Positions 7,845 through 60,326 of a stretch of 64,000 nt of DNA are shown in pieces. The notes beneath the pieces were generated by a model that made no database searches, was not told the DNA's origin, and saw nothing but the letters and a program-made list of their open reading frames with translations. Location of the stretch: NCBI RefSeq assembly GCF_963921235.1, contig NC_086107.1, forward strand, positions 102,922,001 through 102,986,000, written 5' to 3'. Source of the DNA: Mobula hypostoma (Eukaryota). The position numbers were made by a program, and so were the translations under genes. How positions within the stretch are numbered: the first letter of the stretch is position 1; each line of letters begins with the position of its first letter.

Positions 7845-8290
7845 CAGCTTGGTTGGAGGAACAACACCTTATATTCCGCTTGGGTAGCCTCCAACCTGAT
7901 GGCATGAACATCAATACCTCAAACTTCTGGTAATGCCTCCCACCTCCCCCATCCTTCACTATTTCCCATCCCCCTTTCCTTCTCTCACTTTATCTCCTTA
8001 CCTGCCCATCGCCTCCCTCTGGTGCTCCTCCCCCTTTTCTTTCTTCCATGGCCTTCTGTCTCTTTCACCAATCAACTTCCCAGCTCTTCACTTCATCCCT
8101 CCCCCTCCTGGTTTCACCTATCACCTGGCATTTCTCTCTCCCCTCCCCCCGCCCCCACCTTTTAAATCTACTCCTCAGCATTTTCTCTCCAGTCCTGCTG
8201 AAGGGTTTCGGCCCGAAGCATCGCCTGTGCTTTTTTCAATAGCTTCTGCCTGGCCTGCTGAGTTCCTCCGGCATTTTGTGTGTGTGTGTT
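7845..8290 (+). mobile_element. PLE 3' end (GIY-YIG C-terminus, UTR, pLTR with decayed hammerhead 8190-8227)
   Basis: LEEQHLIFRLGSLQPDGMNI; cagtcctgctgaagggtttcggcccgaagcatc. Confidence 0.85.
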
Positions 8291-8785
8291 GGAGCGGTAA
8301 CTGCTTTGCCCAAGACCGCAGGAAACTGCAGGGAGCTGTGAACATAGTCCAGTCCATCTCACACACCGGACTCTTCTCCATTGACTCTGCCTTGGCAAAG
8401 CAGCCATCAGAATCAAGGACCTCCCCTACTCAGGTCTTTCTCTCTTGTCGCCCCTTTTAGCGCGTAGAAGAGACTAAACCTGAGAACACATACACACCAT
8501 CAGGCTCAAGGAATGCTTCTACTGAACTGTGAAAAGCCTCCCATACACTGAAGTTTTGAACTGCAGATCTCCCAACCCCAGGCACTTTGTCTGCTCGCAA
8601 TGCTCCTCCTCTGTAAACGCAACACGGTATTCCACATTCTGGTTTTCTTTCAACTACCTTGATGAAATTATGTCTGATATAATCTATCTGGATGGCATGC
8701 AAAACAAAAGCTTGTCACGGTATCGCGGTTGTAATAATAAACCAATTCTAATTTGTATAGAACATTTTATGGAGGGCAAAGCTTA

Positions 8786-17500: not shown

Positions 17501-17807
17501 ACTGCTTCCGTTCTACAGTATCCTGGTACGTGAGTGGACATGGAGATGTTTCCAGAAGCAGGAGAGTCCAGGACCAGAAAGCACAAACTCAGAATAGAAG
17601 GGTGTCCTTTTAGAACAGAGAATGGGAGGGATTTCTTTAGCCAGAGGCTGGAATTCTTTGCCATGTCAGCTGGGGAAGCCAATGTAGTAAGAGTTTCATT
17701 CATTTGTTTTGTACCGTGTCATATGACATCATTATTATGTGCCGGGTTGTATGACATCATCATTATGTGCTGTGTTGTATGACGTGGATGATCATGGTCT
17801 TGACCAT

Positions 17808-18041
17808 CACGCACAAAGTGCTGGAGGAACTCAGCAGGTCAGGTAGCATCTGTGGAAAAAAGTATAGTCAATGGGCCGAGCTCCTTCGGCAGAACAGACC
17901 CTTTGACAATCCTGCTGAAGGGTCTCGAAACATTGACTGTACTTTTTTTCCATAGTTGCTGCCTGACCAGCTGATTTCGTCCAGCAATTTGTGTGCGTGA
18001 TGCTTTGATTTCCAGCATCTGCAGATTTTCTCTTGGTTGTG
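17808..18041. mobile_element. ORF-less inverted-pLTR mini-insertion
   Basis: Opposed arms. TSD-like atggtcttgaccat (17794-17807) / atggtctacgaccat (18042-18056). Inserted in another repeat. Confidence 0.75.
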
Positions 18042-19870: not shown

Positions 19871-22106
19871 AGGTTAAGATTAGCGTGATTTGTCGTATGA
19901 ACATCGAAGCATACAGAGGAATGTGCCCCCTGCGTCAACGACCGACGCTGTCTGAGGACGTACAGGGGGCAGCCCGCCAGTGTCACCTTGCTTCTGGAGC
20001 CAGCGGAGCTTTTGCCAGCGACTCACTAAAACTAATCTGTACGTCTTTGGACGGTGGGAGGAAACCGGGACGCCCGGCGGGAAACCCACCGCGGTCACGG
20101 GGGGAACGTACAAACTCCTTACAGAGCATGATGGGAAGTGAACCCCGGTCGCTGGTGCTGTAACCCCTACGCACAGGGTAGCGGCTAGCGCGTCACTACT
20201 GCAACTCAAGGCGTGACGGAGTTCGGAGTTCAGAGTTCAATTCCTACACCATCTGTACGACCCTCCCGTGGTCGGTCAGGGCATGAAGGGATACGGGGAG
20301 AAGGCAGGAGACTGGGGCCTAGAGGGAAAATGGATCAACCATGATGAGTGAGAGAGCAGACTCGATGGGCCAAATGGCCTAATTCTGCTCCTATAATCTT
20401 ATGGCCCTCCCTGTGGAATGCAAGGGTTTCCCCCAGGTGCTCTGGTTTCTTCCCACAGTCCAAAGATGTACCAGGTAGGTTAAATGGTCATTGTAAATTG
20501 TACCGTGATTAGGTTAGGGTTAATCGGGTTTGTTGGGGGGGTGTTGTTGCTTCCTGATGTACTGTAAAATAAACAAACAAATAAGTAAATAATGCTGAAT
20601 AAAGTATACTTGCAGAGAAAGTACAGAGCTGTCAGACAACAAGGCCGTAATGAGATTGACAGTGAGGTCTGGGGTCTGTTACATCGTACTATGGAGCTGT
20701 TCAATAGTTTTATAATGGTGGATTAGAAACTGTTCTTTAGTTTGGTGGTATGTGCTTTTAGGCTTTGTCCAATGTTGAGGGGGGGGGCAGGGAGAGGATG
20801 GCCGGGGTGGCTGAGCTCTTTGATTTCATTGGCTGCTTTACCGAGGCAGCTCACTGGAAGGCAGGCCGGTTTCCATGGTGCCTAAACCGTGTCCACAGCT
20901 CTCTGCGTTTTCATGCAGTCACAGGCAGAGCGGTTGTCTCACTGAGCCGGGATACACCTAAACAGGGCACTCTTTACGGAGTATCAGTGGAAATTAGCCG
21001 GAGTCAAAGGATTTCTTTGGCCTCCTGAGGAAGTAGAGGGGCTGGTGACTTTCTCACCTATCTACAGACCCAGTTACCACTTTAAAAAAATCTAATAGGT
21101 TAGGCCCCAGAAGAAGACAATGGCAAAACACTTCTGCAGAAAAATTTGCCAAGAACAACCATAATCATGGAAAGACTACGATCGCCCACATCATATGACA
21201 CGGCACAAAACAAACGAACAAAGAAGTAGGTTCAGTAGCCACGGCCTTCCTTTCACTGGTGTCTGCTGACACTAATTAATTAATACTTGTCTATCATTGG
21301 TTAGAGTTCCAATAGGTTTACCTCAATGTTTCTCTGGCGACATTGAAGTTAACTCATTTCTACCTTTCTGCCTTTCTAAATAATCGATGATTACCAACCT
21401 TCATAATCCAAATGAAAATAGATGTGGACAATCATAAACCCATATGCGGTTTCCACTGATATTTTTAACACCTTCAGAATGAAACTGGGAAATATCAGAG
21501 GCTGGTCCTATTATTTTCACCATTTTTATTTTTATTTTATTTATCAAAACTATAAGTTTCCCCCTTGGCTTATTTTTAATTTCAATTTCTATTTATTTAT
21601 TTATCCATTTATTGACTGAAATACACGGCAAAACAGGCCACACCACCCAGCAGCCCCACTGATTTAACGGGACAATTTACACTGTCCAATTAACCTACCA
21701 ACCAGTAGGCCTTTGGACTGCGGAGGAAACCCACGGGGTCACTGGGAGAACATGCCCTTACAGGCAGCAGTGGGAATTGAACCCCGGTCAGATCCCTCCT
21801 GTACGCCTGGAACGTCGTCTCTGCACCCCACTGCCCACGGGAGGACTGCAGTGAGGAGGAGTCTGTGACCCACCTCTTTGCACACTGCCAGTTCGCAAAG
21901 AGGATGTGGAGGAGGATGGACAGGCTAGTGTCACCCTTCGTCCCCAGCAGCTGCGTAACAGAGGACTCTCTGATCTACGGGCTGTTCCCGGGGACGCACA
22001 CGGAGACCAACATCCGGTGATGCTGGCAGATCATCAGCTCGGTGAAGGACGTTCTTTGGTCAGCCCGAGACTTGATGATCTACCAGCACATGGAGATGTC
22101 CGTGAT

Positions 22107-22144
22107 CGGTCGACATTTCGGGCTGGAAGCCTTCATCAGGACTG
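22107..22144 (-). ncRNA. Minimal type-I hammerhead ribozyme motif
   Basis: Minus strand CAGTC-CTGATGA-AGGCTTCCAGCCC-GAAAT-GTC-GACCG. Confidence 0.65.
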
Positions 22145-23250
22145 TAGAGGGAAGGGGCAGAGGCCCTATAAAGAAGGTGGGGTAAGGTGGGAAGGAGAAG
22201 GCTGGTAGGTTCCAGGTGAAAAACCAGTAAGGGGAAAGATAAAGGGGTGAGGGAGGGGAGGCAGGGAGGTGATAGGCAGGAAAGGTGAAGAAAGAATAGG
22301 GAAAAACACAATGGGTAGCAGAAGGAGGCGGAACCATGAGGGAGGTGATAGGCAGCTGGGGGAGGGGTCAGAGTGAAATAGTGATAGGGGAAGGGAGGGG
22401 GAGGGAATTACCGGAAGTTGGAGAATTCTATGTTCATACCAAGGGGCTGGAGACTACCTAGACGGTATATGAGGTGTTGCTCCTCCAACCTGAGTTTAGC
22501 CTCATCATGGCAGTAGAGGAGGCCATGTATGGACATATCTGAATGGGAGTGGGAAGCGGAGTTGAAGTGGGTGGCTACTGGGAGGTCCTGTCTGTTTTGG
22601 CGGACGGAGCGGAGGTGCTTGACGAAGTGGTTCCCCAGTCTGCGTCGGGTTTTACCGATGTAGAGGAGGCCGCACCGGGAGCACCGGATGCAATAGATGA
22701 CCCCAACTGACTCACAAGTGAAGTGTTGCCTCACCTGGAAGGACTGTTTGGGACCCTGAATGGTGGCAAGAGAGGAGGTGTAGGGACAAGTGTAGCACTT
22801 GCGCTTACAGAGATAAGTGCTGGGTGGGAAATCAGTGGGGAGGGACGTGTGGACCAGGGAGTCGCGGAGGTTAGGATCCCTGTGGAAAGCGGAGAGAGGT
22901 GGAGAGGGAAAGATGTGCTTAGTGGTGGGGTCCTGTTGAAGGTGGCGGAAGTTGCGGGGGATAATGTGCTGGATCCGGAGGCTGGTGGGGTGGTAGCTAA
23001 AGACAAGGGGAACTCTGTCCCTGTTGTGGTGGCAGGAGGATGGGGTGAGAGCCGAAGTGCGGGAAATGGAGGAGATGTGGCTGAGGGCATCATTGATGAC
23101 GGCAGAAGGGAACCCATGATCCTTAAAGAAAGAGGACATTTGAGATGTCCTGGAATGGAGAACCTCATCCTGGGAGCAGATGCAGCGGAGACGGAGGAAC
23201 TGGGAATAGGGAATGGCATTTTTGCATGTGGCGGGGTGGGAAGAGGTATA
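22107..23250 (-). mobile_element. PLE fragment (Neptune-like): RT thumb, Cys linker, GIY-YIG open for ~280 aa, hammerhead at 22107-22144
   Basis: ORF 22408-23331: SHPATCKNAIPYSQFLRLRCICS...CKRKCYTCPY...VIYCIRCSRCGLLYIGKTRRRL...PVATHFNSASHSHSDM. Confidence 0.92.
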
Positions 23251-26200
23251 ACAACAGATTGCCACGTGGGTGGCCAAAGTATGGATATGTAGAGACCACA
23301 AGAGAAATGTATGTAGAGGATTGAGAGTCATTGAATGATTTATTGTATATAATTTTATTTTTGAATAAAGTATATTTTGAAATTTAAAAAAAATTTCTGG
23401 GGAAGAAGCCTTCAGCCATTAACCAGTTCAATTGGTACATGAATCCTACCTATGACCAATGACTGCACTGTCCCTCGCTGTGGCAAAGCAAGCCAAGGGT
23501 CCGAAAGCAGTTGAACTTCTTAAGGTAACTAGGGGTGGACAATAAACGACTCCCATGTCTCCCAAGAAGGAATGAACGATATGAAAGAGGGGTTGATCAG
23601 AGTCAGAATCCGGTTTAACATCATCGGCTTATGTTGTGAAGGGTCTCGGCCCGAAACGTTGACTGTACTCTTTTCCATAGATGCTGCCTGGCCTGCTGAG
23701 CTCCTCCAGCACGTTGTGTGTGTTGCTCGGATTTCCAGCATCTGCAGATTTTCTCCTGTTTGTTGTGAAGTTTGTTAACTTCACAGCAACAGTACAATAC
23801 ATGAAAAGAAACTGTCACACTAAGTATATTAAATAGTTAAGTTAAAATACTGTAAAAAAAACACAGAAATACAAAAAAGAGTATTGAGGTAGTGTTCACA
23901 GGTTCAATGTCCATTTAGGAATCGGATGGCAGAGGGGAAGAAGCTGTTCCTGAATCACTCAGTGTGTGCCTTCAGGCTTCTGTACCTCCTTCCTGACATG
24001 TACAGGGGTTATAAAATTTCAAGCTTTAAATTTTGGTTGATTTCTGGATTCTTGGAGCTTATTAAAAGTTGAAGGGAAATTGTTCAGAATTAGAACCAGA
24101 CTTACATACCATGTAATGTGTTGCTTTTGCCGCAGCCGTTGAACACCACAGCACAAAAGCAGGCCCTTCGGCCCATATACTGCGTGCCTGAACAACTAAT
24201 CTGCCTAGTCCCATAGACCCGCACTCGGACTGTTGCCCTCCATACCCCTCCAATCCGTGTACCTATCCAAACTTCTCTTAAACATTGAAATCGAACCCGG
24301 ATCCATTTGTAGCGCAGTGCAAAGGCACAAAACCACATAAAAATAAATACTGAGGTAGCGTTCATGGGCTGAAGAACCATTGAGGAAGCTGACGGTGGGG
24401 AAGAGGAAGCTGTTCCTAGCATTGAGGCTGAGTCCTATAATCTCCTCTCCAATGGTTGTAATGAGAAGAGGGCATGTCCTGGATGGTGATGGTCCTGAAT
24501 GATGGATTTAGTGGTTAATAAAAATTCAAGATCATATTAACTTAATAAAGTTTACTGCAGTCTTCCACGTCACTGTGGGGGGCGTTCTGATGTCCTCCCA
24601 CATATAAAGAGGCTCTGGTAGATTAATTGAATACTGTAAATTACCTCTTAGTGTGCACCAGTGGCAAAAGAAATCAAATGTTCAAAGTAAGTATAAATTA
24701 TATAACCTTGAGATTCATCTCCTTGCAGGGAGCCACAAAATAAGAAACTCAAAAGAACCCATTTAAAAAAAAGACTAGCAAACAGCCAATGTGCAGAGAG
24801 AGAGAGAGGAAAAAAAACACAAATTGTGCAAACAGTAAAGCAAGTGCACAACATTTCGAATGAAAGTGAGCCCATAGACAGGAAGCCCGGAGCAGACCCA
24901 CGGCCTCAGCTTCAGTTCATCACACAGCGGGTCAAGTTGCTGGAAATCTCGCTGACGCAAAGCCTGGAGTAGATGGAGCAGGTCCGCAGCCTCAGCGTCA
25001 GAGTCGCGGGGAGCGGAGTGAACGTCGCAGGGCAGTGGGCAGAACTGGCCCTCCCCTCCCCTCTGGTCCCGACACCCGGCCTTTTCAATCCATCCAGCCC
25101 GGCATTCGAATTGTCTAAACACTGGGTCATGGTCATCCCTCGCACCAGGACTTGGGCTCTGTCGCGAAGATACGATAAAATCGAATTGGTGAGCGTGTGT
25201 GCAGGAGAAATAAGACAGCAGGGAAATGGCACTGATGGAATTGCTCTGCTGAGAGATAGCATGGAATAAAAGGGCTGAATGTCCGTCTTTCCAATCATAG
25301 TAAGCAAGCAATGGCTGCCTTGCATATCTGAAAATCAAATGGGTTTGTCAGATGTTACATTCTGAAAGCTCATGTTGGATTTTTAAAGCAAAGAGGATCC
25401 AGATGTAGAATTTGCAAGGCCAACTTTTAATGCCAGCACAAAGCTTTATAGGTGGAAAAGAAATATTTTCTAAATAGACATTTATTTTTTGGTCAGAACA
25501 TAAAAGTCCAAAGTCGGGCAGATGGATTACTTCCTAGAATGAGTACTGGAGGGAAATCTATTGGGATAATTTACAATTGGATCCTGCATTCTGAGTGACG
25601 GAGGAGGGAGAGATTGGAAGCAAAACAGTGCAGATGTAGGAAGTTCAGAGCCAAATCAGAAAGCGGTAAAGATGCTCAGCAGGTCAAGCAGCATCTGTGG
25701 AGGAGTGATATAGAGCCAAGGTCTCAGATTAAGAAACCTCTATCAGAGAACTGAAAACGAGAGAAGACGGAAGTATTTTAAATTGAGGAGAGGAGGAAGT
25801 GTCCGGGATATGGAGCAGAGCAGCATGAATGTCACCTTAGCAACCCCGGTTGGATCTAATCACAGAAAGCAAAGGTAAATATACATTCTAACGCTCCACA
25901 ATCTCCATCTCTTCCTCGACCCCTGCCAACAATCCACAATCATTTTCTAATCCTGTCTGACTCAGAACATGCTATTCTTTCAGGAGGTAAATCAGCGCGG
26001 AGCATGTATCTGACCCTTAATATAACTGCCCGTTGCAGAGCCGAGCTGTAAAAATAATGCTGATTGCAGAATGCAAGATCGGGAGACAAATATTTATTTG
26101 TGCGTTTATCAGCACAAGGTACATTATAACTCAAGGCAATGAATATTCCTGCAGCTCATCGTTAAATGACCCAGAGCACTGCAGTTCTTAAACATCATAC

Positions 26201-29600: not shown

Positions 29601-30617
29601 AGATGAAGAGTCCTCAGTCTCCAGCCAATTCAATTTAGTGTCACGCAGCAGAGAAACGGGAACTGGGTCCGTGCTAACCACTAACCTCCCTCCTCTGCTA
29701 ATTCTACATTAAAAGAGGCTGCACCAGGGTTGTAGATTCAGCCAGATCCATCGCAGCCACAAACCCCCCCCCTCCAGGGTCAAGGGCAGCTTCAAAAGGC
29801 GATGCCTCAGAAAGGTGGCATCCATCACTAAGGACCCTGACCATCCAGGACATGCCTTCTGCGCTCATTTCTACTCTCAGGTACACCGGAGCCTGAAGGT
29901 CCACATGGCGACCAATCACATCAAGAGAGAACCAAGTACGCTTGATAAAGCAAAGGCTCTGGGAGGAGACAACATCTCACCTCAGGACCGAAGACCCGTG
30001 CTGTGGAACTAGCTGTACCTCCAGCCACGTGCTCCAGTACAAATTGCCATGGTTCACCCCATCCAAGAAAAAAGCCAATGTGACTCTCATTGCCACCTTG
30101 TTGGTCTATTCAAGATGCTCCCCCTGCCCCCCCCCAGAGCCTCTGAAGTGGAGTTGACCAGCAAGAAGAACAGTTGCATGAGAACAACACCCCAACTTGC
30201 ACTCCATCCTAACTGGAAATATATTCACTGTGAAACGGAGAGACTGCTTTCTCCCTCATTGGGGGGAGAGAGAGAGAGCCTGTGGTATGTCAAATACTGG
30301 GTGAACAAGTAGTCTTTGGGGTACTGCAAGTCTGTGTCTTTGGCTGATGTTTTGCTGCATGCTTGAGTGCTTGGTGGGGGGGTTTCATTGCTTTTTTTTG
30401 CTGGTGGGGGAGGGGGAGCTGGGGGGGGTCGGCTTTGGGGTTCTAACATTTAACTGTCATTCATTCTTTGGGGCACTCCTCTGTTTTCATGGATGTTTGC
30501 AAAGAAAAAGTATTTCAGGATGTATATTGTATGCATTTCTCTGACATTAAATGCAACTTTGAAACCTTTGCTTCTTGGGTAATTCCCTACCCAATTCAGA
30601 TTCAAATTTATTTATCA

Positions 30618-30975
30618 CTGGACAGGCTAGATGCGGGAAGATTGTTCCCGATGTTGGGGAGGTCCAGAACGAGGGGTCACAGTTTGAGGATAGAGGGGAA
30701 GCCTTTTAGGACCGAGATTAGGAAAAACTTCTTCACACAGAGAGTGGTGAATCTGTGGAATTCTCTGCCACAGCAAACTGTTGAGGCCAGTTCATTGGCT
30801 ATGTTTAAGAGGGAGTTAGATATGGCCCTTGTGGCTACAGGGGTCAGGGGGTATGGAGGGAAGGCTGGGTTCTGAGTTGGATGATCAGCCATAATCATAA
30901 TAAATGGTGGTGCAGGCTTGAAGGGCCGAATGGCCTACTCCTGCACCTATTTTCTATGTTTCTATGTTTCTATGT
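30618..30975 (+). mobile_element. CR1 LINE 3' end
   Basis: LDRLDAGRLFPMLGRSRTRGHSLRI...FFTQRVVNLWNSLP; (tttctatg)n tail. Confidence 0.9.
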
Positions 30976-32034
30976 GTACATTGAAACACTCTGTGAAATG
31001 CGTCAGCAACCAACACAACCTAAGGGTACGCTGGGGGCAGCCCGCGAATGCCCCCACACATTCCGCCACCAGCATAGCAGTGTCCCCAAGGCCCAGCAGA
31101 ACAGCAGAGAAAACAGCAAAACGTAACGCAACAAGCAACGAAACAGCAACAGCAAAACAAGCCCCTTTCCTCCCTCCCTCCCACCCGTACACCAGGAGTC
31201 CTCCAACTTCAGGAGAGGCCTCTGGGCCTCCAGACTCCAGGCTTCGGCCTTCAGGAACCGAGGTAAAGCTGGCGGTTTACCACCTCTACGCACAAGACCT
31301 CTGGCACCTTGTCTCCTTCGAGTTGTCTCCATCAACTTCCCGAGTTTCCTAGCATCTGTGTCCCCATGTGTGAGAGACGGGGAGGCTGATCTGTTCCTTG
31401 TGCCTCGGCTGGAGGGAGCATCAGGGCTTATTGAAGTCTTTCCTCCATGTTCCAGGCCTGGTCCTAGACGATACCATGGAGTGAGTACCATCGCCAGTAT
31501 CCCCCCACCACCTCTGCCCCAAGGCTGATTAGGGATGTGTTTTAAATGCTGGCCTTGCCGCATCCTAGGAACCAATACAAAGCAGCTGGAATTAGTGAGT
31601 GATATTGCTCACATTCCAGAGGAGTAAAGTGCTTTCCTGTGAGGAGACTCCTGTAAATATTGACACATTCCAAAGCATAGCTTCTGCAAGACAGCTTCAG
31701 ATATTAAAAGCAGTGCAAGCTTCGTCCTCACTGCAGTGTCTAACATTAGCGTAAAGCAGTAAAATATTGCTGGAATATGATAACACAGAAAGATACTGTA
31801 ATGATAGCAGGAGCCCATATTCACTACTAAGATAGGATAAGACTATTTTGAAAACCAGAATAATTTTAAGTGAATCAGACATCGTCTCTGTTTCCGATCA
31901 CGTTAAAATCTTTTGAATTTAGCTCAAGAGCAGCCAATTCTTAGATCTCAGTGTCTTACCGGCATTAAGGTACCATGGCGTCAAACAATAAGAATACTGG
32001 AGGAAGTAGTCAAGTCAGGTACAATGATAAGTAG

Positions 32035-32256
32035 CACACACAAAATGCCGGAGGAATTCAGCAGGCCGAACAGCATCTAGGAGAAAGAGTAAACAGTCGA
32101 TGTTTCGGTCCGAGACCCTTCTCCAGGACTGATTAAGGGTCCGAAACGTCAACTGTTAACTTTTTCTCATAGATGCTGCCTGGCCTGCTGAGTTCCACCA
32201 GCATTTTGTGTGTGTTGCTTTGGGCTTCCAGTATCTGCAGATTTTCTCGTGTTTGT
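32035..32256. mobile_element. ORF-less inverted-pLTR mini-insertion
   Basis: Minus arm 32035-32131 and plus arm ~32129-32256, each carrying a gaaac-Rtc-Ractg hammerhead remnant. Confidence 0.75.
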
Positions 32257-40429: not shown

Positions 40430-40641
40430 AGGCAGGAGAAGATCTGCAGACGCTGCAAGTCCGAGCAACAAACACAAAATGCTGGAGGAACTCAGCAGGC
40501 CGGGCAGCATCTGTGGAAAACAGTGCAGTCGACGTTTCAGGCCGAGAGGGTCCTGCCGAAGGCTCTCGGCCCGAAATGTCGACGGTACTCTTTTCCGCAG
40601 ATGTTGCCCGGCCTGCCGAGTTCCTCCAGCATTTTGTGAAG
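40430..40641. mobile_element. ORF-less inverted-pLTR mini-insertion
   Basis: Opposed arms. Flanks gatgcagttcc (40419-40429) / gaagcagttcc (40642-40652). Confidence 0.75.
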
Positions 40642-44654: not shown

Positions 44655-45095
44655 CAAGCAACGCGCACAAAATGCTGGAGGAACTCAGCAGGCCAGGAAA
44701 CAGTATGGAAAAAAAGTACAGTCGACATTTCAGGCGGAGACCCTTTGGCCGGACTGGAGGAAAAAAGAAAGACGAGGAATAGATTTAAAGGGTGGGGGGA
44801 AGAGGAGGGATGAAGTAAAGAGCTGGGAAGTTGGTGAAAGAAATAGAGGGCAGGAGAAGGGGGAGTCTAGTAGGAGAGGACAGAAGGCCATGGAAGAAAG
44901 AAAGGTGGGGGGAGGAGCACTAAAGGGAAGCGATGGGTGGGCAAGGGGGTAAGGTGAGAGAGGGTAAAGGGCATGGGTAATGGTGAAGGAGAGGGGGTGG
45001 GGGCATTAACAGAAGATTGAGAAATCAATGTTCATTGTTATCAGATTGGAGGCTACCCAGTCTACCCAGATATAAGGTGCTGTTCCTCCAACCTG
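44655..45095 (-). mobile_element. PLE 3' end
   Basis: pLTR with decayed hammerhead near 44720, UTR, and endonuclease tail. Confidence 0.75.
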
Positions 45096-45792: not shown

Positions 45793-45976
45793 TAAGTCTG
45801 GCTTACTGGAACTCACATATCTCAAGAGGTGGAACCCAGTAGAATGTGTTAATCTGATCCTTGTATGTGTGGAGATCTGTGGGACTGTTGTTTGGTAACT
45901 GCATGCAGTGATATGACTGCAGCCAGAAACTTGGTGTGCAATGTCAGAAGCCCAAACTTACATCCTATTACGTTAA

Positions 45977-46206
45977 CAACAGGAATTCTGCAGATGCTGG
46001 AAATTCAAGCAACACACATCAAAGTTGCTGGTGAACGCAACAGGCCAGGCAGCATATCTAGGAAGAGGTACAGTCGACGTTTCAGGCCGAGACCCTTCGC
46101 AGTTAGTCCTGACGAAGGGTCTCGGCCTGAAACGTCGACTGTACCTCTTCCTAGAGATGCTGCCTGGCCTGCTGCGTTCACCAGCAACTTTGATGTGTGT
46201 TGCTTG
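45977..46206. mobile_element. 230-bp ORF-less palindromic pLTR insertion with a perfect 15-bp TSD
   Basis: TSD atcctattacgttaa at 45962-45976 and 46207-46221. 94-bp stem 46006-46099 / 46113-46206 with 2 mismatches. Confidence 0.92.
46104..46141 (+). ncRNA. Minimal type-I hammerhead ribozyme motif
   Basis: TAGTC-CTGACGA-AGGGTCTCGGCCT-GAAAC-GTC-GACTG; predicted cleavage after 46136. Confidence 0.78.
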
Positions 46207-46375
46207 ATCCTATTACGTTAAATATGTTGTATTTCTGCATAGTGAGACTGAACACTGGAAAAGAGGTGTGTGGAAAAATCGTGGCCCTCAAGAAAACTAA
46301 TATTCAGCAATAGGCAACACACATCAAAGTTGCTGGTGAACGCAGCAGGCCAGGCAGCATCTCTAGGAAGAGGCG

Positions 46376-46413
46376 CAGTCGACATTTCAGGCCGACACCC
46401 TTCGTCAGGACTA
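46376..46413 (-). ncRNA. Minimal hammerhead ribozyme motif
   Basis: Minus strand TAGTC-CTGACGA-AGGGTGTCGGCCT-GAAAT-GTC-GACTG. Confidence 0.7.
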
Positions 46414-47573
46414 ACTGAAGGAAGAGTTAGTAAGAGATTTGAAAGTGGGAGGGGGAGGGGGAGATCCAAAGTGATAGGAGAAGACAGGAGGGGGAGGGAT
46501 GGAGCCAAGAGCTGGACAGGTGATTGGCAAAAGGGATATGAGAGGATCATGGGACAGGAGGTCCGGGGAGAAAGACAAGTGGGGGGGGGGGAACCAGAGG
46601 ATGGGCAAGGGGTATATTCAGAGGGACAGAGGGAGAAAAAGGAGAGTGAGAGAAAGAATGTGTGTATAAAAATAAATAACGGATGGGGTACGAGGGGGAG
46701 GTGGGGCATTAGCGGAAGTTAGAGAAGTCGATGTTCATGCCATCAGGTTGGAGGCTACCCAGACGGAATATAAGGTGTAGTTCCTCCAACCTGAGTGTGG
46801 CTTCATCTTTACAGTAGAGGAGGCCATGGATAGACATGTCAGAATGGGAATGGGATGTGGAATTAAAATGTGTGGCCACTGGGAGATCCTGCTTTCTCTG
46901 GCAAAGCGGTCTCCCAGTCTGCGTCGGGTCTCGCTGATATATAAAAGGCCACATCGGGAGCACTGGATGCAGTATGTCACCCCAGCCGACTCACAGGTGA
47001 AGTGTCGCCTCACCTGGAAGGACTGTTTGGGGCCCTGAATGGTAGTAAGGGAGGAAGTGTAAAGGCATGTGTAGCACTTGTTCCGCTTACACGGATAAGT
47101 GCCAGGAGGGAGATCAGTGGGGAGGGATGGTGGGGACGAATGGACAAGGGAGTTGCATAGGGAGCGATCCCTGCGGAATGCAGGGGGGGGGAGGGAAAGA
47201 TGTACTTAGTGGCGGGATCCCGTTGGAGGTGGCGGAAGTTACGGAGAATAATATGTTGGACCCCGAGGCTGGTGGGGTGGTAGGTGAGGACCGGGGAACC
47301 CTATTCCTAGCGGGGTGGCAGGAGGATGGAGTGAGAGCAGATGTGCGTGAAATGGGGGAGATGCATTTGAGAGCAGAGTTGATGGTGGAGGAAGGGAAGC
47401 CCCCTTTCTTTAAAAAAGGAGGACATCTCCCTCGTCCTGGAATGAAAAGCCTCATCCTGAGAGCAGGTGCGGCGGAGATGGAGGAATTGCGAGAAGGGGA
47501 TGGCATTTTTGCAAGAGACAGGGTGAGAAGAGGAATAGTTCACTTTCTAACTCTTACTAACTCTTCCTTCAGT

Positions 47574-47611
47574 TAGTCCTGACGAAGGGTCTCGGCCTGA
47601 AACATCGACTG
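47574..47611 (+). ncRNA. Minimal hammerhead ribozyme motif (AUC site)
   Basis: TAGTC-CTGACGA-AGGGTCTCGGCCT-GAAAC-ATC-GACTG. Confidence 0.65.
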
Positions 47612-48349
47612 TACCTTTTCCTGGAGATGCTGCCTGGCCTGCTGCGTTCACCAGCAACTTTGATGTGTGTTGCCTGAATTTCCAGCATCTGCAGAATTCC
47701 TGTTGTTTGCATTCAGCAATAGAGCTGCATTGGGTTAAAGCATCCTGTGTGTGTAACACACCACATTCAGAACTTTAAGGCCCTAACCTCCATATTTGCT
47801 TCACTTTCTAAACAAAAACACATGCCTATCTGCTGTAAATCCTGGTGCTGTTGTCTGTTGCTCTGAAGAGATCTGCTTTCAGCACTCTGTACTAACCAAA
47901 AACAATGAAGTACTTTGTGAAACCTTATGCAACCTGTGGCATAAAATAACAACTTATTAGGTTTTGTAGCGTTATTTGTCTTGGCACGATGTAGATGTGA
48001 TTTTGCAAAATTGTATTAGAGAGTTGAAGGCACTTTTGAAGCAATTTGGTGTCAGCTTACCCCTCCGGGTTTCTGTGACATCACAGTGGCCTGCAAGACA
48101 ATTTAGAACTTCAGTCGTTTTGTAACTCTGTCTTAAAGGTTACATGGAGTTCACAGCATTGACGCGGTGGTTGAAGGGTGGTTAACGCCCGAGTCAAGAC
48201 ACCTTGAACAGGCTGGGGCAGCGCCATTTAGGAGAGGGATGACTGAAAGTCTCAAGATTGGCTCGGACAGAGGTGAAAATGTCTCCACTTGCGGGGAATT
48301 GGGAACAAGCAGCACAAATTCTGTTGCTGATTATTTAAATTTGGCCTGT

Positions 48350-48945
48350 CCCCTAAAACCCTCACTAATTTTTATAGATGCACCGTAGAAAGCATTCTTC
48401 TAGGGTGCATCACAACCTGGTATGGAAGTTGTCCTGTCCAAGACCGGAAGAAGCTGCAGAAGATCGTGAACATGGCACAGCACATCACACAAACCAATCT
48501 TCCATCCTTGGACTCACTTTATACTGCATGCTGTCGGAGCAGTGCTGCCAAGATAATCAAGGACACAACCCACCCAGCCAACACACTTTTCGTCCCTCTT
48601 CCCTCCGGGAGAAGGCTCAGGAGCTTGAAGACTCGTACTGCCAGATTTGGGAATAGCTTCTTCCCAACTGTGATAAGACTGCTGAACGGATCTTGACCCG
48701 GATCTGGGCCGTACCCTCCAAATATCCGGACCTGCCTCTCAGTATTTTTTTTGCACTACCTTACTTTCCATTTTTCTATTTTCTATTTATGATTTATAAT
48801 TCAAATTTTTAATATTTACTAACTTTTACTATTTTTAATATTTAATATTTGTAATCCAGGGAGCGGGAAGCGCAGAATCAAATATCGCTGTGATGATTGT
48901 ACGTTCTAGTATCAATTGTTTGGCGACAATAAAGTATAAAGTATT
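48350..48945 (+). mobile_element. Rex1/Babar LINE 3' end
   Basis: AAKIIKDTTHPANTLFVPLPSGRRLRSLKTRTARFGNSFFP; aataaagtataaagta tail. Confidence 0.85.
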
Positions 48946-49787: not shown

Positions 49788-50670
49788 AAGAACATAAGAA
49801 ATATGAGCAAGATTTGGCCATCTGGCCCATCGAGCCTGCTCCACCATTCAGTAAGATCATGGCTGATCTGGCCATGGACTCATCTCCACCTACATCCCTT
49901 TTCCCCATAACCCTTAATTCCCCCCACTATGCAAAAATCTATCCAACCTTGTCTTAAAGATATTTACTGAGGAAGCCTCCACTGCTTCATTAGCAGAGGA
50001 TTCCACAGAGTCTTCACTGTCTGGGAAAAGCAGTTCCTCCTCATCTTCATCCTAAATCTACTCCCCTGAATTTTGAGGCTGTGTCCCTTAGTTCTAGTCT
50101 CACATACCAGTGGAAGCAACTTTCCTGCCTCTATCTTATCTATCCCTTTCATAATTTTATATGTTTCTATAAGATCTCCTCTTATCCTTCTGAATTCCAG
50201 CGAGTACAGTCCCAGGCGATTCAATCCCTCCTCATGTTCTAACCCTCTCATCTCTGGAATCAACCTGGTGAACCTCCTCTGCATCGCCTCCAAAGCCAGT
50301 ATATCCTTCCTCAAGTAGGGAGACCAGAACTGCACACAGTACTCCAGGTGTGGCCTCACCAGTACCCTGTACAGTTGCAGCATAACCTCCCTGCTCTTAA
50401 ATTCAATCCTTCTAGCAAAGAAGGCCAACATCCCATTTGCCTTCTTGATAGCCTGCTGCACCTGCAAACCAACCTTTTGTGATTCATGCACAAGCACTCC
50501 CAAGTCCCTCTGCACACCAGCATGCTGCTATTTTTTAATATTTAAATCATAATCTGCTCTTCCATTTTTCCTTCCAAAGTGGACGACCTTGCATTTACCA
50601 CATTTTATTCCATCTGTCAGACCCTCGCCCACTCACTTAACCTATCTATATCTCTCTGCAGACTCTCCGT
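49788..50670 (-). mobile_element. CR1 LINE 3' portion
   Basis: ORF 49964-50515 QRDLGVLV...LYRVLVRPHLEYCVQFWSP. Confidence 0.92.
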
Positions 50671-54732: not shown

Positions 54733-54952
54733 CACGCAAGAGAAAATCTGTAGACGCTTGAAATTCGAACAACACTCACAAAATGCTGGAGGAACTCAGC
54801 AGACCAGGCAGCATCCCAGCCCTACTGAAGGGTCTCTACCCAAGACTCCGACTCTTTATTCATCTCCATAGATGCTGCCTGACCTGTTGAGTTCCACCCG
54901 CATTTTGCAGGTGTTACTCTGGACTTCCAGCGTCTGCAGAATCTCTCGTGTT
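54733..54952. mobile_element. Old inverted-pLTR mini-insertion
   Basis: Opposed pLTR arms with a decayed hammerhead near 54820. Confidence 0.65.
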
Positions 54953-55420: not shown

Positions 55421-55909
55421 TTTGTCATCGTGGAGAGGAGAGTGAGCTGGCAGGAGTAGAGGATTCTGGGTACGGTGAGGATGGAGCACCACGGGAGGGG
55501 TGTGGGACGGGTGGCAGAGAAGGAGTGCCGGGAGCAGGTGATGGCATGGGTGCAGATACACCCAGCCCCAGGACACCAGGCAAGGCCATTTGATTCCAAA
55601 TAATTGGATTAGTGATCATTACAGAATGTCTCTCTGGTACTTCCCTCTCTCTTCCCCTTTTCCCAACCACAATTCCCCTCTCCCTGCTCCCTTCCCAATC
55701 TCAGTCCATAACAGAGACCCATATCATCACTCACACGTCATGAAATTTGCTTTTCTTTTGCGACAGCAGTACAGTGCAATACATAAAATTACTACAGCAC
55801 TGGGCAAAAGTCTTAGGTAACCTAGCTATATATATGTGCCTAAGACTGTACATTCTGTCAAAGTTGCTGGTAAAAGCAGCAGGCCAGGCAGCATCTCTAG
55901 GAAGAGGTA

Positions 55910-55947
55910 CAGTTGACGTTTCGGGCCGAGACCCTTCATCAGGACTA
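55910..55947 (-). ncRNA. Minimal hammerhead ribozyme motif
   Basis: Minus strand TAGTC-CTGATGA-AGGGTCTCGGCCC-GAAAC-GTC-AACTG (one helix-I mismatch). Confidence 0.7.
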
Positions 55948-56245
55948 ACTGAAGGAAGAGCTAGTAAGAGATTTGAAAGTGGGAGGCGGAGGGGGAGATC
56001 CAAAATGATAGGAGAAGACTGGAGAGGGAGGGATGGAGCCAAGAACTGGACAGGTGATTGGCAAAAGGGATACGAGAGGATCATGGGATAGGAGGCCCAG
56101 GGAGAAGGAAAAGGGGGAGGGGGGGAAAACCCAGAGGATGGGCAAGGGGTATAGTCAGAGGAACAGAGGGAGAAAAAGGAGAGAGAGATAAAGAATGTGT
56201 GTATATAAATAAATAACGGATGGGGTACGAGGTGGAGGTGGGGTA

Positions 56246-57824
56246 TTAGCGGAAGTTAGAGAAGTCAGCGTTCATGCCATCAGGTTGGAGGCCACCCAGA
56301 CGGAATATAAGGTGTTGTTCCTCCAACTTGAGTGTGGCTTCATCTTTACAGTAGAGGAGGCCGTGGATAGACATATCAGAATGGGAATGGGATGTGGAAT
56401 TAAAATGTGTGGCCACTGGGAGATTCTGCTTTCTCTAGCGGACAGAGCGTAGGTGTTCAGCAAAACGATCTCCCAGTCTGCATCGGGTCTCGCTAATATA
56501 TAGGAGGCCATATCGGGAGCACCGGACGCAGTATATCACCCCAGCCGACTCACAGGTGAAGTGTTGCCTCACCTGGAAGGACTGACTGGGGCCCTAAATG
56601 GTGGTAAGGGAGGAAGTGTAAGGGCATGTGTAGCACTTGTTCGGCTTACAAGGATAACTGCCAGGAGGGAGATCAGTGGGGAGGGATGGTGGGGATGAAT
56701 GGACAAGGGAGTCGCGTAGGGAGCGATCCCAGCAGAAAGCCAGGGGGAGGGAAAAATGTGCTTAGTGGTGGGATCCCGTTGGAGGTGGCGGAAGTTACGG
56801 AGAATAATATGTTGGACCCTGAGGCTGGTGGGGTGGTAGGTGAGGACCAGGGGAACCCTATTCCTAGTGGGGTGACGGGAAGATGGAGTGAGATCAGATG
56901 TACGTGAAATGGGGGAGATGCGTTTGAGAGCAGAGTTAATGGTGGAGGAAGGGAAGCCCCTTTCTTTAAAAAAGGAGAACATCTCCCTTGTCCTGGAATG
57001 AAAAGCCTCATCCTGAGAGCAGATGTGGCGGAGATGGAGGAATTGCGAGAAGGGGATGGCATTTTTGCAAGAGACAGGGTAAGAAGGGGAATAGTCCAGA
57101 TAGCTGTGAAAGTCTGTAGGCTTATAGTAGACATCAGTAGATAAGCTGTCTTCAGAGATAGAGACAGAAAGATCTAGAAAGGGGAGGGAGGTGTCGGAAA
57201 TGGACCAGGTAAACTTGAGGGCAGGATGATAGTTGGAGGCAAAGTTAATGAAGTCAACGAGCTCAGTATGCGTGCAGGAAGAAGTGCCATTGCAGTCGTC
57301 GATGTAGCGAAGGAAAAGTGGGGGACAGATACCAGTATAGGTTTGGAACATAGATTGTTCCACAAAGCCAACAAAAAGGCAGGCATAGCTCGGACCCATG
57401 TGGGTGCCCATAGCTACACCTTTAGTTTGGAGGAAGTGGGAGGAGCCAAAGGAGAAATTATTAAGAGTAGGGACTAATTCCGCTAGACAGAGCAGAGTGG
57501 TGGTAGAGGGGAACTGATTAGGTCTGGAATCCAAAAAGAAGCGGAGAGCTTCTGATGGGGGATGGAAGTATATAGGGACTGGACATCCATGGTGAAAATA
57601 AAGTGGTGGGGGCCAGGGAACTTAAAATCATCGAAAAGTTTAAGAGCGTGGGAAGTGTTACGAACATAGGTAGGAAGGGATTGAACAAGGGGGGATAAAA
57701 CTGTGTCGAGGTATGCAGAAATGAGTTCGGTGGGGCAGGAGCAAGCTGAGACAATAGGTCTGCCAGGACAGGCAGGTTTGTGGATCTTGGGTAGGAGGTA
57801 GAAACGGGAAGTGCGAGGTGCGGG
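56246..57824 (-). pseudogene. Frameshifted PLE reverse transcriptase / GIY-YIG endonuclease
   Basis: FYLLPKIHK..GRPIVS; TMDVQSLYTSIPH; QTKGVAMGTHMGPSYACLFVG; FLRYIDDC; FLDL..TDVYYKPTD. Confidence 0.93.
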
Positions 57825-58018
57825 CATCCTCTGGGTTTTTCCCCCCCTCCCCCTTTTCCTTCTCCCTGGGCCTCCTGTCCCATGATCCTCTCATATCCCC
57901 TTTGTCAATCACCTGTCCAGCTCTTGGCTCCATCCCTCCCCCTCCTGTCTTCTCCTATCATTTTGGATCTCCCTCTCCCCCTCCCACTTTCAAATCTCTT
58001 ACTAGCTCTTCTTTCAGT

Positions 58019-58056
58019 TAGTCCTGACGAAGGGTCTCGGCCCGAAACGTCGACTG
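58019..58056 (+). ncRNA. Minimal type-I hammerhead ribozyme motif, best-preserved copy
   Basis: TAGTC-CTGACGA-A-GGGT(CTCG)GCCC-GAAAC-GTC-GACTG; helix I AGTC/GACT; predicted cleavage after 58051. Confidence 0.82.
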
Positions 58057-60326
58057 TACCTCTTCCTAGAGATGCTATCTGGCCTGCTGCATTCACCAGC
58101 AACTTTGATGTGTGTTGCTTGAATTTCCAGCAGCTGCAGAATTCCTCGTGTTTACTGTACATTCTGTGCCTCAGACTTGGACGTACAGTTATCTTTCATC
58201 CACTGATATGGTGAAAGGTTGAGGCCCCAGGCCAGCTTAATGGAGAACACAGTTCATCAGTCCAATTGTGAAACATTAGCAAAGCCAATCCAGATAACAA
58301 TTCCTTATCCACCATGTTAATAATTTAGTAATGCAGTTCCTTTAAGAGTTAATTAAAACTCACAGTTCAATCTTTTCAAGTCATGCTGGCACTTGCAGTC
58401 ATCACAGGCAGGAGCATGTAGGAAAAAGAATCGTTTATTAAAAAATAAATGAAAAGGGAACAATATCGTTCAATAATTAAAACATTCCAACAGTCTTCAA
58501 CTATAAATGAAGGTGGGGACTCTTCACTCAAAATTGCTGATCATGCAATCAATCATTCATGTGTTGCTCAGAATCTTTTAACTTTATCGTGGCAGGATGA
58601 ACTAGTTACAAGGAGCAGCAATCAGAGAGTGACAATTTCTCACATCCCCAAAATACCAGGATTAGAAACAAATTCTAAAGGAAACTTCCCTGTTTAAGTA
58701 ACTTCTGTTCTGTATCTTACTCTGGATCACATTTCCTTCAAATGAGCAAAGTATAATTTACTTTCTTGAAATTAAAACAAAACAGAGAAAGAGGAACAAG
58801 ATTAAATGCAGACTTGTAGCTTCCAATAATTTACCAAATTTGAAGAGTTGTCAGGGTGAGGTTCTATACTGAACTATGACCACTACTTTCTGGAAATAAC
58901 CTAAATCCTTTTTCTTCCAAAGAGACCCATCAGCAAATTTGCCCTAATGGCACTTAATTCTGCACCGAACCAGGAAATGAGATGTTGAGGTCATTCACCA
59001 GTATGGCATCAGGAAGAGGAACAAGCTTGGAGCCAAAGTAAAGCACAGATTTAAAAACCCTCTCTTCCTCTAGTTCTCTGCATAGGAAGCAAGACACTCT
59101 GTGGTAGAGTGAGCATTATATAGGGCGAGGGATTACTGGAGGAAGAGATGCTTTAAATCTCAAGGATGTTACTCATCAGTATGTTTTTACTTGACTTGAC
59201 TAAGAATTCTTAATTAATAAGCCATGTCATGACCAAATGATTTGCCCCAGTAAAGCATTAAACCAGGGAAATACAACTAATACTCCACCAGCTGTTTCAG
59301 AAACTAAAATACTTTGCTTAGGTGTTTTAAACTGGAGAGGCACAGTACACACTGGATTATCTTCATCTTATGGAGTAGTGGTTCTCTCGATGTTAAACAT
59401 CACATTTCAAGTCTGATACTTTCCTTCAATATTGGTCAAAAAGGTGGCAATGTTGTCCACAGATGTTAAGACTGCACTTTTCACCCAGAACAATGCTGAC
59501 ACACTCGCATAGTGCAAAGCTCACGTGAGCGAGGGTCGTTGCATCCAAAGCTCATCCCTCTGGTAACTCCTCCATAACAGCACCTAGCTGCAGCTGGAAT
59601 ATCCCAAACATTTTTGCACAGACTGGCTTGCCAGGGAATGTATTGGGGAGAAGAATGAAGCTTAGACATCTACCTTTGGAATGCTACTTGACCATGTGCT
59701 GAATGAAACTAAATTTCAAGGGAGTGTCGTCCTGTCTCAGCACACACATTTCCATCAATTATTAAAGCAGAAGGTGGCTACCCAGAGTTTTATTCTCATT
59801 GGTGGTGCACCTCAACCAAACTTTGACTCAACTTTGGACTTTGTACAGGCCAAACAGCCTGGTGACCCAATGGACAATGGATATTTTTGCAACTGCATGA
59901 GTAGAAATCTTATGGCAAGAGAAACACAAAAAGTATTTGCAGAATGTGGTCAGCTAACTGTTTGGAAGGGGGTTCCTGAAAGTAAATGTTTGGCGGGCTG
60001 CCTAGCAGACAGTTCTATCACACCACAAGTCACAGCTCAAGGGTAATTCATGAATAGAGATCAATCCAAATATGAAATCCAAGATAAAAATTAAACACCC
60101 AACCATCTGTCCAGAGTGAAATAATAGGGAGAGGAGGAGGAAGCAGTCATCTGCTTCTGGTACATAAATGTGAAACAGAGAGTAAATTATTAACAGCTAC
60201 TGATTCAAAATCTCCAGTTACTAATCTCGCATCTTATTCAAGATTGCAAAAGTGTTACCCAACTGGCGATTGTAGCTTGTTCCTGCTCAGGAAGAGACCT
60301 CAAAGTTCCATTGACTGAAATACATT

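What the first reader, a model, noticed from the sequence alone, without database searches (positions are those of the whole stretch)
58019..58056. Minimal hammerhead ribozyme built into the Penelope-like terminal repeat, ~15-20 copies in 64 kb
Seen: helix I (AGTC/GACT), core CUGAYGA plus one extra A, a 4-bp helix II with a CUCG loop, GAAA, and a near-absent helix III (ACGU palindrome) before a GUC site. Intact-core copies are at 58019+, 46104+, 46376-, 47574+, 55910- and 22107-. Decayed copies lie near 8190, 13180, 15370, 15640, 16840, 17910, 19500, 23635, 27400, 32100, 40550, 40960, 44720 and 54820. Established: PLE pLTRs in many animals carry minimal type-I hammerheads, thought to cleave as dimers through a palindromic helix III. 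Inference: this genome holds a very large load of self-cleaving motifs, possibly inside host pre-mRNA introns.
Basis: partly seen in the sequence, partly recalled or inferred. Interest (0 to 1): 0.8.

Follow-up and report, generated by a model that had tools for sequence, protein, structure and literature searches.

The report
Penelope-element minimal hammerhead, huge copy number
The motif is a real copy of the small hammerhead ribozyme motif that Penelope-like jumping genes carry, a kind already described, present here in tens of thousands of copies, with no sign in the genome that the cut is used to shape the RNA that gets copied back into DNA.

Summary
Window 58020-58055 (+) reads helix I, CUGACGA, one unpaired A, a 4-bp helix II, GAAA, the ACGU palindrome and GUC, with the cut expected at 58051/58052. 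This matches the published consensus for minimal hammerheads of Penelope-like elements (PLEs).

The motif lies about 300 nt after the RT/GIY-YIG reading frame of a PLE, in the short arm of a head-to-head double insertion (55858-58152) flanked by a 14-bp target duplication.

The window holds 26 pieces with at least part of the motif. Six keep both catalytic boxes and two keep every feature. The own genome (3.48 Gb) holds 55,586 exact 28-mers and 98,092 CpG-tolerant 31-mers, against 0 for the reversed controls.

Evidence for activity is weak:
- Rfam finds no hammerhead.
- There is no covariation among copies.
- The active fold is far from the energy minimum.
- 82 of 100 sampled copies have G10.1-U11.1.
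- An older lineage carries CUGCCGA.
- Copy 5' ends pile up at the start of helix I, not at the cut site.
- Direct repeats (pLTRs) were not seen.
- No RNA data could be had.

Verdict: a new member of a known kind. This scan noted the same kind before on other genomes.

The parts
58020..58055 (+). Minimal type-I hammerhead motif. Helix I 58020-23 pairs with 58052-55. CUGACGA is 58024-30. The unpaired A is 58031. Helix II is 58032-35 with 58040-43, loop CUCG. GAAA is 58044-47. The ACGU palindrome is 58047-50. C17 is 58051, so the cut is expected at 58051/58052.
   Evidence: Read directly; pattern excess; fits the published consensus seen.
57826..58152 (+). Short arm of the composite insertion. 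It holds only the PLE 3' module and includes the roughly 30-nt 'tail' extension at its outer end.
   Evidence: BLAST and nhmmer, (profile positions 2-308).
55858..57825 (-). Long arm of the same insertion. It is a 5'-truncated PLE with RT and GIY-YIG frame pieces at 57890-56249, followed by the 3' module at 56120-55858, which ends without the tail.
   Evidence: ORFs; tblastn; relatives; nhmmer.
55911..55946 (-). Partner hammerhead motif in the long arm (CUGAUGA, G1.1 changed to A).
55845..55858 (.). Left copy of the 14-bp target-site duplication ACTGTACATTCTGT.
58154..58167 (.). Right copy of the same target-site duplication.
45975..46208 (.). A 234-bp palindromic insertion made of two 3' modules head to head, with the junction at 46099/46100. 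The right arm has a fully intact motif at 46105-46140 (+). The left arm starts inside CUGA|CGA. It is flanked by a 15-bp duplication, ATCCTATTACGTTAA.
46312..47707 (.). A composite insertion: a minus-strand truncated PLE (motif at 46377-46412) joined to a plus-strand 3' module (motif at 47575-47610). It has a 12-bp duplication, ATTCAGCAATAG.
22106..23760 (.). A composite: a minus-strand PLE with a GIY-YIG frame and motif at 22115-22139, joined to a plus-strand 3' module that starts inside the motif at 23637. No duplication was found.
17802..18036 (.). An old head-to-head pair. Both arms carry the CUGCYGA form (C at position 6).
40433..40641 (.). An old head-to-head pair. The right arm carries CUGCCGA.
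32027..32253 (.). An old head-to-head pair with decayed motifs.
54737..54952 (.). An old head-to-head pair with decayed motifs.
8028..8302 (+). An older PLE 3' module with CUGCUGA, placed after an endonuclease frame remnant at 7853-7927.

Best explanation
This is the minimal type-I hammerhead motif carried in the 3' untranslated module of an endonuclease-bearing Penelope-like retroelement. The element is Neptune-like, judged by the C-x3-C-x2-C linker in front of the GIY-YIG domain. The host is a large vertebrate genome, probably a cartilaginous fish.

The reported copy is a fossil. It sits in the short arm of a head-to-head double insertion made in one event. Both cut DNA ends primed reverse transcription of the element's 3' module (inferred), and the two cDNAs met in the middle.

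On RNA the motif could cut after C58051 only if helices I and III form between two sense copies (a double hammerhead). Most likely this needs the element's own protein and is inefficient. The genomic record indicates that the RNAs that were reverse-transcribed still carried the whole motif, so cutting did not define the template ends.

Shown here: motif anatomy, PLE context, single-event composites with target duplications, copy numbers, and the distribution of copy ends. Inferred: priming on both strands, and weak protein-assisted cleavage.
For: Anatomy is read. It fits the published consensus 'NNN CUGANGAH G...C GAAAN palindrome NU H NNN' (supplement of PMC4209133), including the unpaired base after A9.

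PLE context: frame pieces with YIDD and with GVIY...LLYIG. There are 110 relatives at E<=1e-5, typically 800-930 aa. P0007 has RVT_1 at 291-479 and GIY-YIG at 708-751. The frame ends about 120 nt before the 3' module in 10 or more copies.

Single-event composites: target duplications of 12-15 bp flank 6 head-to-head composites, including 55858-58152. One arm carries the roughly 30-nt tail in 9 of the 10 composites I could judge. This agrees with passages of PMC8557442. The Anolis PLE protein cuts and extends both strands in vitro (PMC11167929).

Load: 55,586 exact 28-mers and 98,092 CpG-tolerant 31-mers, with reversed controls at 0.

Modest excess conservation: non-CpG columns of the motif average 0.879 majority identity, against 0.737 for the 40 nt upstream and 0.821 for the 40 nt downstream.

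Uncleaved templates: 68 copies reach past the motif. 31 run on upstream, 4 start 12-25 nt before helix I (58009-58024 excluded), 15 start at 58009-58024, 8 start inside the motif, and 3 start within 4 nt of the cut site. Only one of those 3 (3315-) truly starts at GAC. Contig depth in 4 runs does not rise after 58052.
Against: No hammerhead family of Rfam matches. This holds at gathering score, at E<=10 on the whole window, and on 57990-58090 alone.

There is no covariation among 43 copies: 83.5% of cells are paired against 83.9% in shuffles, and there is 1 double change against 3.1.

By secondary-structure energy, the double-hammerhead fold (-17.9 kcal/mol) loses to two monomer hairpins (2 x -14.1) and to an extended duplex (-36.5). 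The monomer optimum pairs GACG of the core with CGUC at the cut site.

82 of the first 100 exact copies have U at 11.1.

An older lineage with C at the essential position 6 also multiplied.

In head-to-head composites a read-through RNA would fold into a long hairpin that buries the motif (-200 kcal/mol for 45975-46208).

Other blocks of the module (58074-85 at 0.919; 58134-45 at 0.903) are as conserved as the motif.

Direct pLTRs were not found.

No cleavage assay and no RNA data were available.
Confidence: 0.62

Rival explanations
1. The sequence has the same descent (a PLE hammerhead relic) but no longer cuts in vivo. [quoted passage not shown]
For: A lineage with CUGCCGA multiplied: 12 of 57 local copies and 69 of the first 100 non-A variants genome-wide. 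The commonest form has G10.1-U11.1. Copy ends cluster at the first base of helix I and not at the cut site. The monomer optimum is a rod-like hairpin. In vitro, hammerhead mutants of the Anolis PLE did not change insertion, and no RNA-seq ends were seen at the cut site (PMC11167929).
Against: The young, most numerous lineage keeps every invariant core base and the palindrome, which a mere hairpin would not need. G-U at 10.1/11.1 also occurs in published family representatives. The Anolis motif does cut when the protein is present.
Confidence: 0.28
2. It is a non-LTR retrozyme: a non-autonomous tandem repeat with hammerheads that is expressed as small circular RNA.
For: Short units of about 135 nt without a reading frame are common. 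A 2026 preprint derives vertebrate retrozymes from PLE pLTRs (abstract and passages).
Against: There is no tandem array of the unit in the window. Among the first 100 exact copies, only 1 of 14 close neighbour pairs is direct. The units are 5'-truncated or head-to-head pieces of the PLE 3' module with target duplications. The unit boundaries are not at the cut site.
Confidence: 0.04
3. It is a chance resemblance to a hammerhead inside an abundant repeat.
For: All copies are one family, so the motif arose once. There is no Rfam hit and no covariation.
Against: Five separate features of the published consensus are met at once. The motif lies where PLEs of many phyla carry it (PMC4209133). It is shared by two PLE lineages of this genome whose flanks differ.
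Confidence: 0.03

Closest known systems
Minimal hammerheads (min-HHR) of metazoan Penelope-like elements (Cervera and De la Pena 2014, PMC4209133)
   Same: Type-I order, CUGANGA plus one unpaired base, a G at 10.1 closing helix II, GAAA followed by 'C G U C' with no helix III loop, and a short helix I. They are associated with an RT/GIY-YIG element. Many copies are single or in opposite-strand pairs 100-700 bp apart. Activity as a monomer is expected to be low.
   Different: Helix II has only 4 bp, where most published examples have 5-8. The load is at least 10 times that paper's largest counts (about 4,000 in coelacanth and about 9,000 in Xenopus). No cartilaginous fish appears in their alignment. 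A lineage with C at position 6 is outside their range. Direct flanking repeats were not seen here.
Poseidon PLE of Anolis carolinensis, PAc (Frangieh et al. 2024, PMC11167929)
   Same: A hammerhead lies next to the roughly 150-nt RNA module needed for reverse transcription. Both target strands are cut and extended. There is a 'tail' signature. Uncleaved RNA is the main template.
   Different: In PAc the motif overlaps the start of the reading frame. Here it lies about 300 nt after the stop and about 100-135 nt before the insertion's 3' end. PAc belongs to a different PLE clade. Nothing was tested at the bench here.
Non-LTR retrozymes and amphibian satellite hammerheads (PMC7229834)
   Same: Type-I hammerheads with a weak helix III that need dimers. 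Copy numbers are very high: 126,247 motifs in axolotl.
   Different: Those are tandem arrays with canonical helices and loop contacts, and they are expressed as circular RNA. Here the copies are dispersed or head to head, and the motif is minimal. The density here (about 28 per Mb) is higher than in axolotl (about 4.5 per Mb, using the 28.21-Gb genome size quoted in the 2026 preprint).

Membership tests
PLE minimal hammerhead (min-HHR) | CUGANGA and GAAA boxes and an NUH cut triplet in type-I order | tested here: met
   CUGACGA at 58024-30, GAAA at 58044-47, GUC at 58049-51.
PLE minimal hammerhead (min-HHR) | One unpaired base between A9 and 10.1 (CUGANGAH) | tested here: met
   A58031. The consensus is in the supplement of PMC4209133.
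PLE minimal hammerhead (min-HHR) | G10.1-C11.1 closing pair of helix II | tested here: met
   G58032-C58043 in this copy. However, 82 of the first 100 exact genomic copies have U at 11.1. G-U also occurs in published representatives.
PLE minimal hammerhead (min-HHR) | No helix III loop; palindromic bases around 15.1/16.1 that allow a dimer | tested here: met
   ACGU at 58047-50. The palindrome is kept as a standard pair in 79.5% of cells across 43 copies.
PLE minimal hammerhead (min-HHR) | Lies in the repeats flanking a PLE (RT plus GIY-YIG) | tested here: inconclusive
   It is linked to a PLE frame. It was seen only downstream of the frame and in inverted arms. There was no direct upstream repeat in 3 of the 3 longest copies.
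PLE minimal hammerhead (min-HHR) | Compensatory changes in the helices among family members | tested here: inconclusive
   the covariation score is 0.123 against 0.145 in shuffles. The copies are too alike, and differ mostly by CpG decay.
PLE minimal hammerhead (min-HHR) | Self-cleavage, as a dimer | not testable with these tools
   This needs a bench assay. The energies disfavour the active fold.
Canonical type-I hammerhead (Rfam hammerhead families) | Match to the covariance model, with helix III and loop contacts | tested here: not met
   No hit at gathering score, at E<=10, or on 101 bases alone.
Endonuclease-bearing Penelope-like element | One frame with RT followed by a C-terminal GIY-YIG domain | tested here: met
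   The window pieces match 800-930-aa proteins. P0007 has RVT_1 then GIY-YIG. The window's own GIY-YIG hit is weak (E 0.0033, below the cut-off).
Endonuclease-bearing Penelope-like element | Insertion anatomy: 5' truncation, an adjacent inverted truncated copy, and a 30-40-bp tail at one end | tested here: met
   The feature is as described in passages of PMC8557442.
Non-LTR retrozyme | Head-to-tail tandem arrays of 150-450-bp units, each with a hammerhead | tested here: not met

The most novel reading that the evidence does not exclude
The roughly 135-nt 'hammerhead plus tail' module is itself the main retrotransposed RNA of this genome. It begins at the first base of helix I, from its own start site or by an unknown processing step, and it is copied uncleaved. 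The motif's conserved job would then be to pair two template RNAs through its palindromes, or to load the dimeric RT/endonuclease. Both cut DNA ends would be primed at once, giving the head-to-head double insertions. Under this reading the ribozyme core would be a by-product or a regulator.
Probability: 0.15. Interest if true: 0.65.

Novelty: new member of a known kind. Interest (0 to 1): 0.3.

Why it matters
This family gives one of the densest loads of hammerhead motifs seen in a vertebrate, about 28 near-intact motifs per Mb. It also leaves a large fossil record of where reverse transcription stopped.

That record speaks to an open question about Penelope-like elements: is the hammerhead used to cut the template RNA? 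Here the ends of the copies say mostly not. A lineage with a core change that should disable cutting also spread. Both points fit the in vitro result from the Anolis element.

The family would be a convenient system for testing protein-assisted or dimer cleavage and the origin of head-to-head insertions. As an identification, though, it is expected biology.

Tried and rejected
Rfam scans found no hammerhead. The weak hits at 17867-17937, 32066-32183 and 54790-54897 to unrelated families are the long hairpins formed by head-to-head pairs.

ARAGORN found no tRNA.

RNA evidence: no RNA holder is listed. The four runs I laid are contigs of unrecorded kind, so they cannot show RNA ends. They served only for depth and variants across copies.

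A cluster of nhmmer starts near the cut site (profile positions 203-218) was inspected and mostly rejected. Decayed motif remains lie upstream in most of these cases.

A search for a full-length element with a direct upstream repeat found none in 11 loci. The partial tails upstream in L024 and L027 are unrelated older insertions.

A snap-back (self-primed) origin of the palindromes was considered and set aside. Direct target duplications and the one-sided tail fit priming on both strands better.

An intron ending at helix I, as in Drosophila virilis, was considered. No spliced joint was seen, and I found no convincing donor site by eye.

A solved-structure search with the RT piece gave only chance hits.

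A literal search of papers for the motif sequence found nothing.

Copy statistics therefore rest on 300,769 bases.

Full report
**What is at the site.** On the + strand, 58020-58055 reads AGTC, CTGACGA, A, GGGT-CTCG-GCCC, GAAA, CG, TC, GACT. As RNA this is a type-I hammerhead without a helix III loop.
- Helix I has 4 bp, plus a possible U58019-G58056 pair.
- The CUGANGA box comes next, then one unpaired A.
- Helix II has 4 bp.
- GAAA follows, then the palindrome ACGU in place of helix III, then GUC.
- The expected cut lies between 58051 and 58052.

A box pattern (CTGAYGA, 13 bases, GAAAC, up to 1 mismatch) has 7 sites in the window against 0.65 expected. None of 100 shuffles reached 7.

**Copies in the window.** The motif lies in a repeat of about 330 bp (57826-58155). 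Self-BLAST gives 21 pieces. An iterated nhmmer profile gives 31 pieces in the window, 26 of them with at least part of the motif.
Only 58019+ and 46104+ keep all features. The others have lost the palindrome or a helix pair, mostly at CpG sites.
- All 14 'decayed' places hold remnants. The one at 16840 was missed by nhmmer and confirmed by reading.
- All copies belong to one family, so the many copies are one origin of the motif, not independent support.

**The element is a Penelope-like element.**
- Frames on the minus strand at 57890-56249 carry RT and GIY-YIG signatures.
- A database search with the 350-aa RT piece gave 110 proteins at E<=1e-5, typically 800-930 aa. The best named one is from a bamboo shark, at 67% identity.
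- A full-length relative (P0007) has Pfam RVT_1 at 291-479 and GIY-YIG at 708-751.
- The window's own Pfam hits are weak: GIY-YIG at E 0.0033, below the cut-off.
- A C-x3-C-x2-C linker precedes the GIY-YIG part. This form is quoted for Neptune PLEs in PMC8557442 (passage).
- In ten or more copies the frame ends about 120 nt before the 3' module, and the motif lies about 300 nt after the stop.

**The reported copy sits in a head-to-head double insertion.**
- 55858-57825 is a 5'-truncated PLE on the minus strand. 57826-58152 is a second copy of just the 3' module on the plus strand.
- The whole unit is flanked by a 14-bp duplication, ACTGTACATTCTGT.
- Five more young composites have duplications of 12-15 bp. 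One is the 234-bp palindrome 45975-46208.
- In 9 of the 10 composites I could judge, one arm ends about 30 nt further out than the other.
- An inverted truncated copy and a one-sided 30-40-bp 'tail' are described features of PLE insertions (PMC8557442, passages).
- The purified Anolis PLE protein cuts and extends both target strands (PMC11167929, section 3 part 1).
- Priming on both strands is therefore my inference for these composites.
- Direct flanking repeats (pLTRs) were not seen. The window has none. The three longest copies fetched (L023, L024, L030) have none in front.
- Among the first 100 exact motif copies on contig C1, the 14 neighbour pairs within 5 kb are 10 minus/plus, 3 plus/minus, 1 plus/plus and 0 minus/minus.
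- There is no tandem array of the unit in the window.

**Genome-wide load.** The window's own assembly has 3.48 Gb.
- It holds 27,736 + 27,850 exact matches to a 28-letter form of the motif, with 0 for the reversed control.
- It holds 48,971 + 49,121 matches to a 31-letter form that tolerates CpG decay, again with control 0.
- That is about 28 per Mb.
- For scale, PMC4209133 gives about 4,000 for coelacanth and about 9,000 for Xenopus (main text). PMC7229834 gives 126,247 canonical type-I motifs in axolotl (passages).
- An unselected 200-kb stretch of C1 holds 28 pieces with at least part of the motif. The total number of remnants is therefore likely several hundred thousand, but that rests on a single sample.
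- Contigs of runs from several coded organisms also hold the module.

**Comparison with the published kind.** The supplement of PMC4209133 (file 2, part 2) aligns about 55 representatives. Its consensus is NNN CUGANGAH G...C GAAAN, a palindrome, NU H, NNN.
- The copy here fits every term, including the extra base and the 'C G U C' after GAAA.
- Its 4-bp helix II is at the short end of the range.
- No cartilaginous fish is listed there.
- A literal search of the paper library for the motif sequence found nothing.
- This scan's earlier notes record the same kind on other genomes.

**Tests bearing on activity.**
- *Rfam:* no hammerhead match at gathering score, at E<=10, or on 101 bases alone. 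This is expected for a motif without helix III.
- *Covariation:* I aligned 43 of the 47 copies that span the motif. I dropped L005:4456-4503, L019:6329-6385, window:2664-2714 and window:25706-25756 because of long insertions or poor alignment. The alignment shows no covariation: 83.5% of cells are paired against 83.9% in shuffles, with one double change against 3.1. This neither supports nor refutes the fold, because the copies differ mainly by neutral decay.
- *Conservation:* non-CpG columns of the motif average 0.879 majority identity. The 40 nt upstream average 0.737, the 40 nt downstream 0.821, and the regions further out 0.84-0.85. Two other blocks of the module are equally conserved.
- *Folding:* the monomer optimum (-14.1 kcal/mol) pairs GACG of the core with CGUC at the cut site. 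The hammerhead secondary structure scores -9.5. For two copies, the double hammerhead scores -17.9 against -36.5 for an extended duplex. A transcript through a head-to-head composite would form a near-perfect hairpin (-200 kcal/mol for 45975-46208).

**Lineages.**
- Of the first 100 exact copies, 82 have U at 11.1 while keeping the other CpGs. In the laid contigs, T at 58043 makes up 43-63% of depth. The most prolific lineage therefore had a G-U pair closing helix II. That also occurs in several published representatives.
- A second, older lineage has C at position 6 (CUGCCGA). It accounts for 12 of 57 local copies.
- Genome-wide, 5,542 copies of the CpG-tolerant pattern have a non-A at that position. 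By my count, the first 100 listed are 69 C, 19 G and 12 T. This points to a lineage and not to scattered mutation.
- Some of these copies follow PLE frame remnants.
- That A6 is essential for catalysis is recalled knowledge, not tested here.

**Where the copies end.**
- 68 copies reach well past the motif. Of these, 31 continue upstream, 4 start 12-25 nt before helix I, 15 start within 58009-58024, 8 start inside the motif, 3 start within 4 nt of the cut site and 7 start further down.
- On inspection, only one copy (3315, minus strand) truly starts at GAC.
- In contigs of four runs, summed depth rises about sevenfold between 57994-58005 and 58030-41. It does not rise after 58052. Many contigs have unrelated sequence just before 58020/58021.
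- Part of that rise may reflect the variable stretch upstream, which has the lowest identity.
- The RNAs that were copied thus usually still carried the whole motif, and many ended at its first bases.
- This agrees with the in vitro finding that unprocessed RNA is the main template and that no RNA-seq ends were seen at the cut site in Anolis (PMC11167929, passages).

**Most likely mechanism.** The motif is inherited PLE equipment in the 3' module that the reverse transcriptase uses. Cutting, if it happens, needs two sense RNAs or the element's protein. It is slow and does not define the template ends. The genomic copies, including 58019, are fossils. A purely structural role is the main rival. 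The claim about host introns was not tested.

**Limits.**
- No RNA run was available.
- Supplements of the bioRxiv preprint are closed and may list this group of animals.

Noticed in passing
window 8188-8231, 17861-17943, 40548-40589, 44715-44759; loci L006, L010, L011, L012, L013: An older lineage of the same 3' module carries CUGCCGA/CUGCUGA (C at core position 6). It still multiplied: 12 of 57 local copies. Genome-wide, 5,542 copies have a non-A at this position, and 69 of the first 100 listed have C.
   Followed up: partly
58043 and genome-wide: The commonest form of the motif has U at 11.1 (a G-U pair closing helix II). This holds for 82 of the first 100 exact copies, and T makes up 43-63% of contig depth at 58043.
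   Followed up: partly
58009-58024 and equivalents: Copy 5' ends and head-to-head junctions pile up at the first bases of helix I. Two old copies begin G+AGTCC (L006:8767, L011:1965). This could be a transcript start, but it is unexplained.
   Followed up: partly
57998-58019: A pyrimidine run ending in CAG lies just before helix I in both lineages. It resembles a 3' splice site or an initiator. In Drosophila virilis the PLE intron is reported to end at helix I (PMC4209133). No spliced joint was seen.
   Followed up: partly
58095-58152: The two alternative 3' ends of copies (about 58120-58124 and 58152) flank a conserved GU-rich hairpin. In composites only one arm has the longer end, which is the PLE 'tail'.
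   Followed up: partly
5997-6488, 11110-11634, 30447-30875, 49964-50527: There are frame remnants of another retroelement family, sharing a motif like RLGLYSLE-RR-RGDLIE. They are probably 3' ends of a LINE. They were not searched.
   Followed up: no
29116-29613, 33445-33810, 48331-48696: These are further open frames of a third repeat family, with similar C-terminal peptides. They were not searched.
   Followed up: no
43342-43381 and 43652-43696 (-): Two short matches to the T-arm end of the Rfam tmRNA model (E 0.00066 and 0.47, far below gathering score). ARAGORN finds no tRNA. They may be remnants of a tRNA-derived SINE.
   Followed up: partly
35624-35671 (+): A GC-rich hairpin weakly resembles mir-378 (28.5 bits against a gathering score of 80, E 0.12). 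It is probably a chance match.
   Followed up: no
2064-2316: Tandem repeats of 26-27 and 69 bp, 97% matching for the 69-bp period, unrelated to the finding.
   Followed up: no
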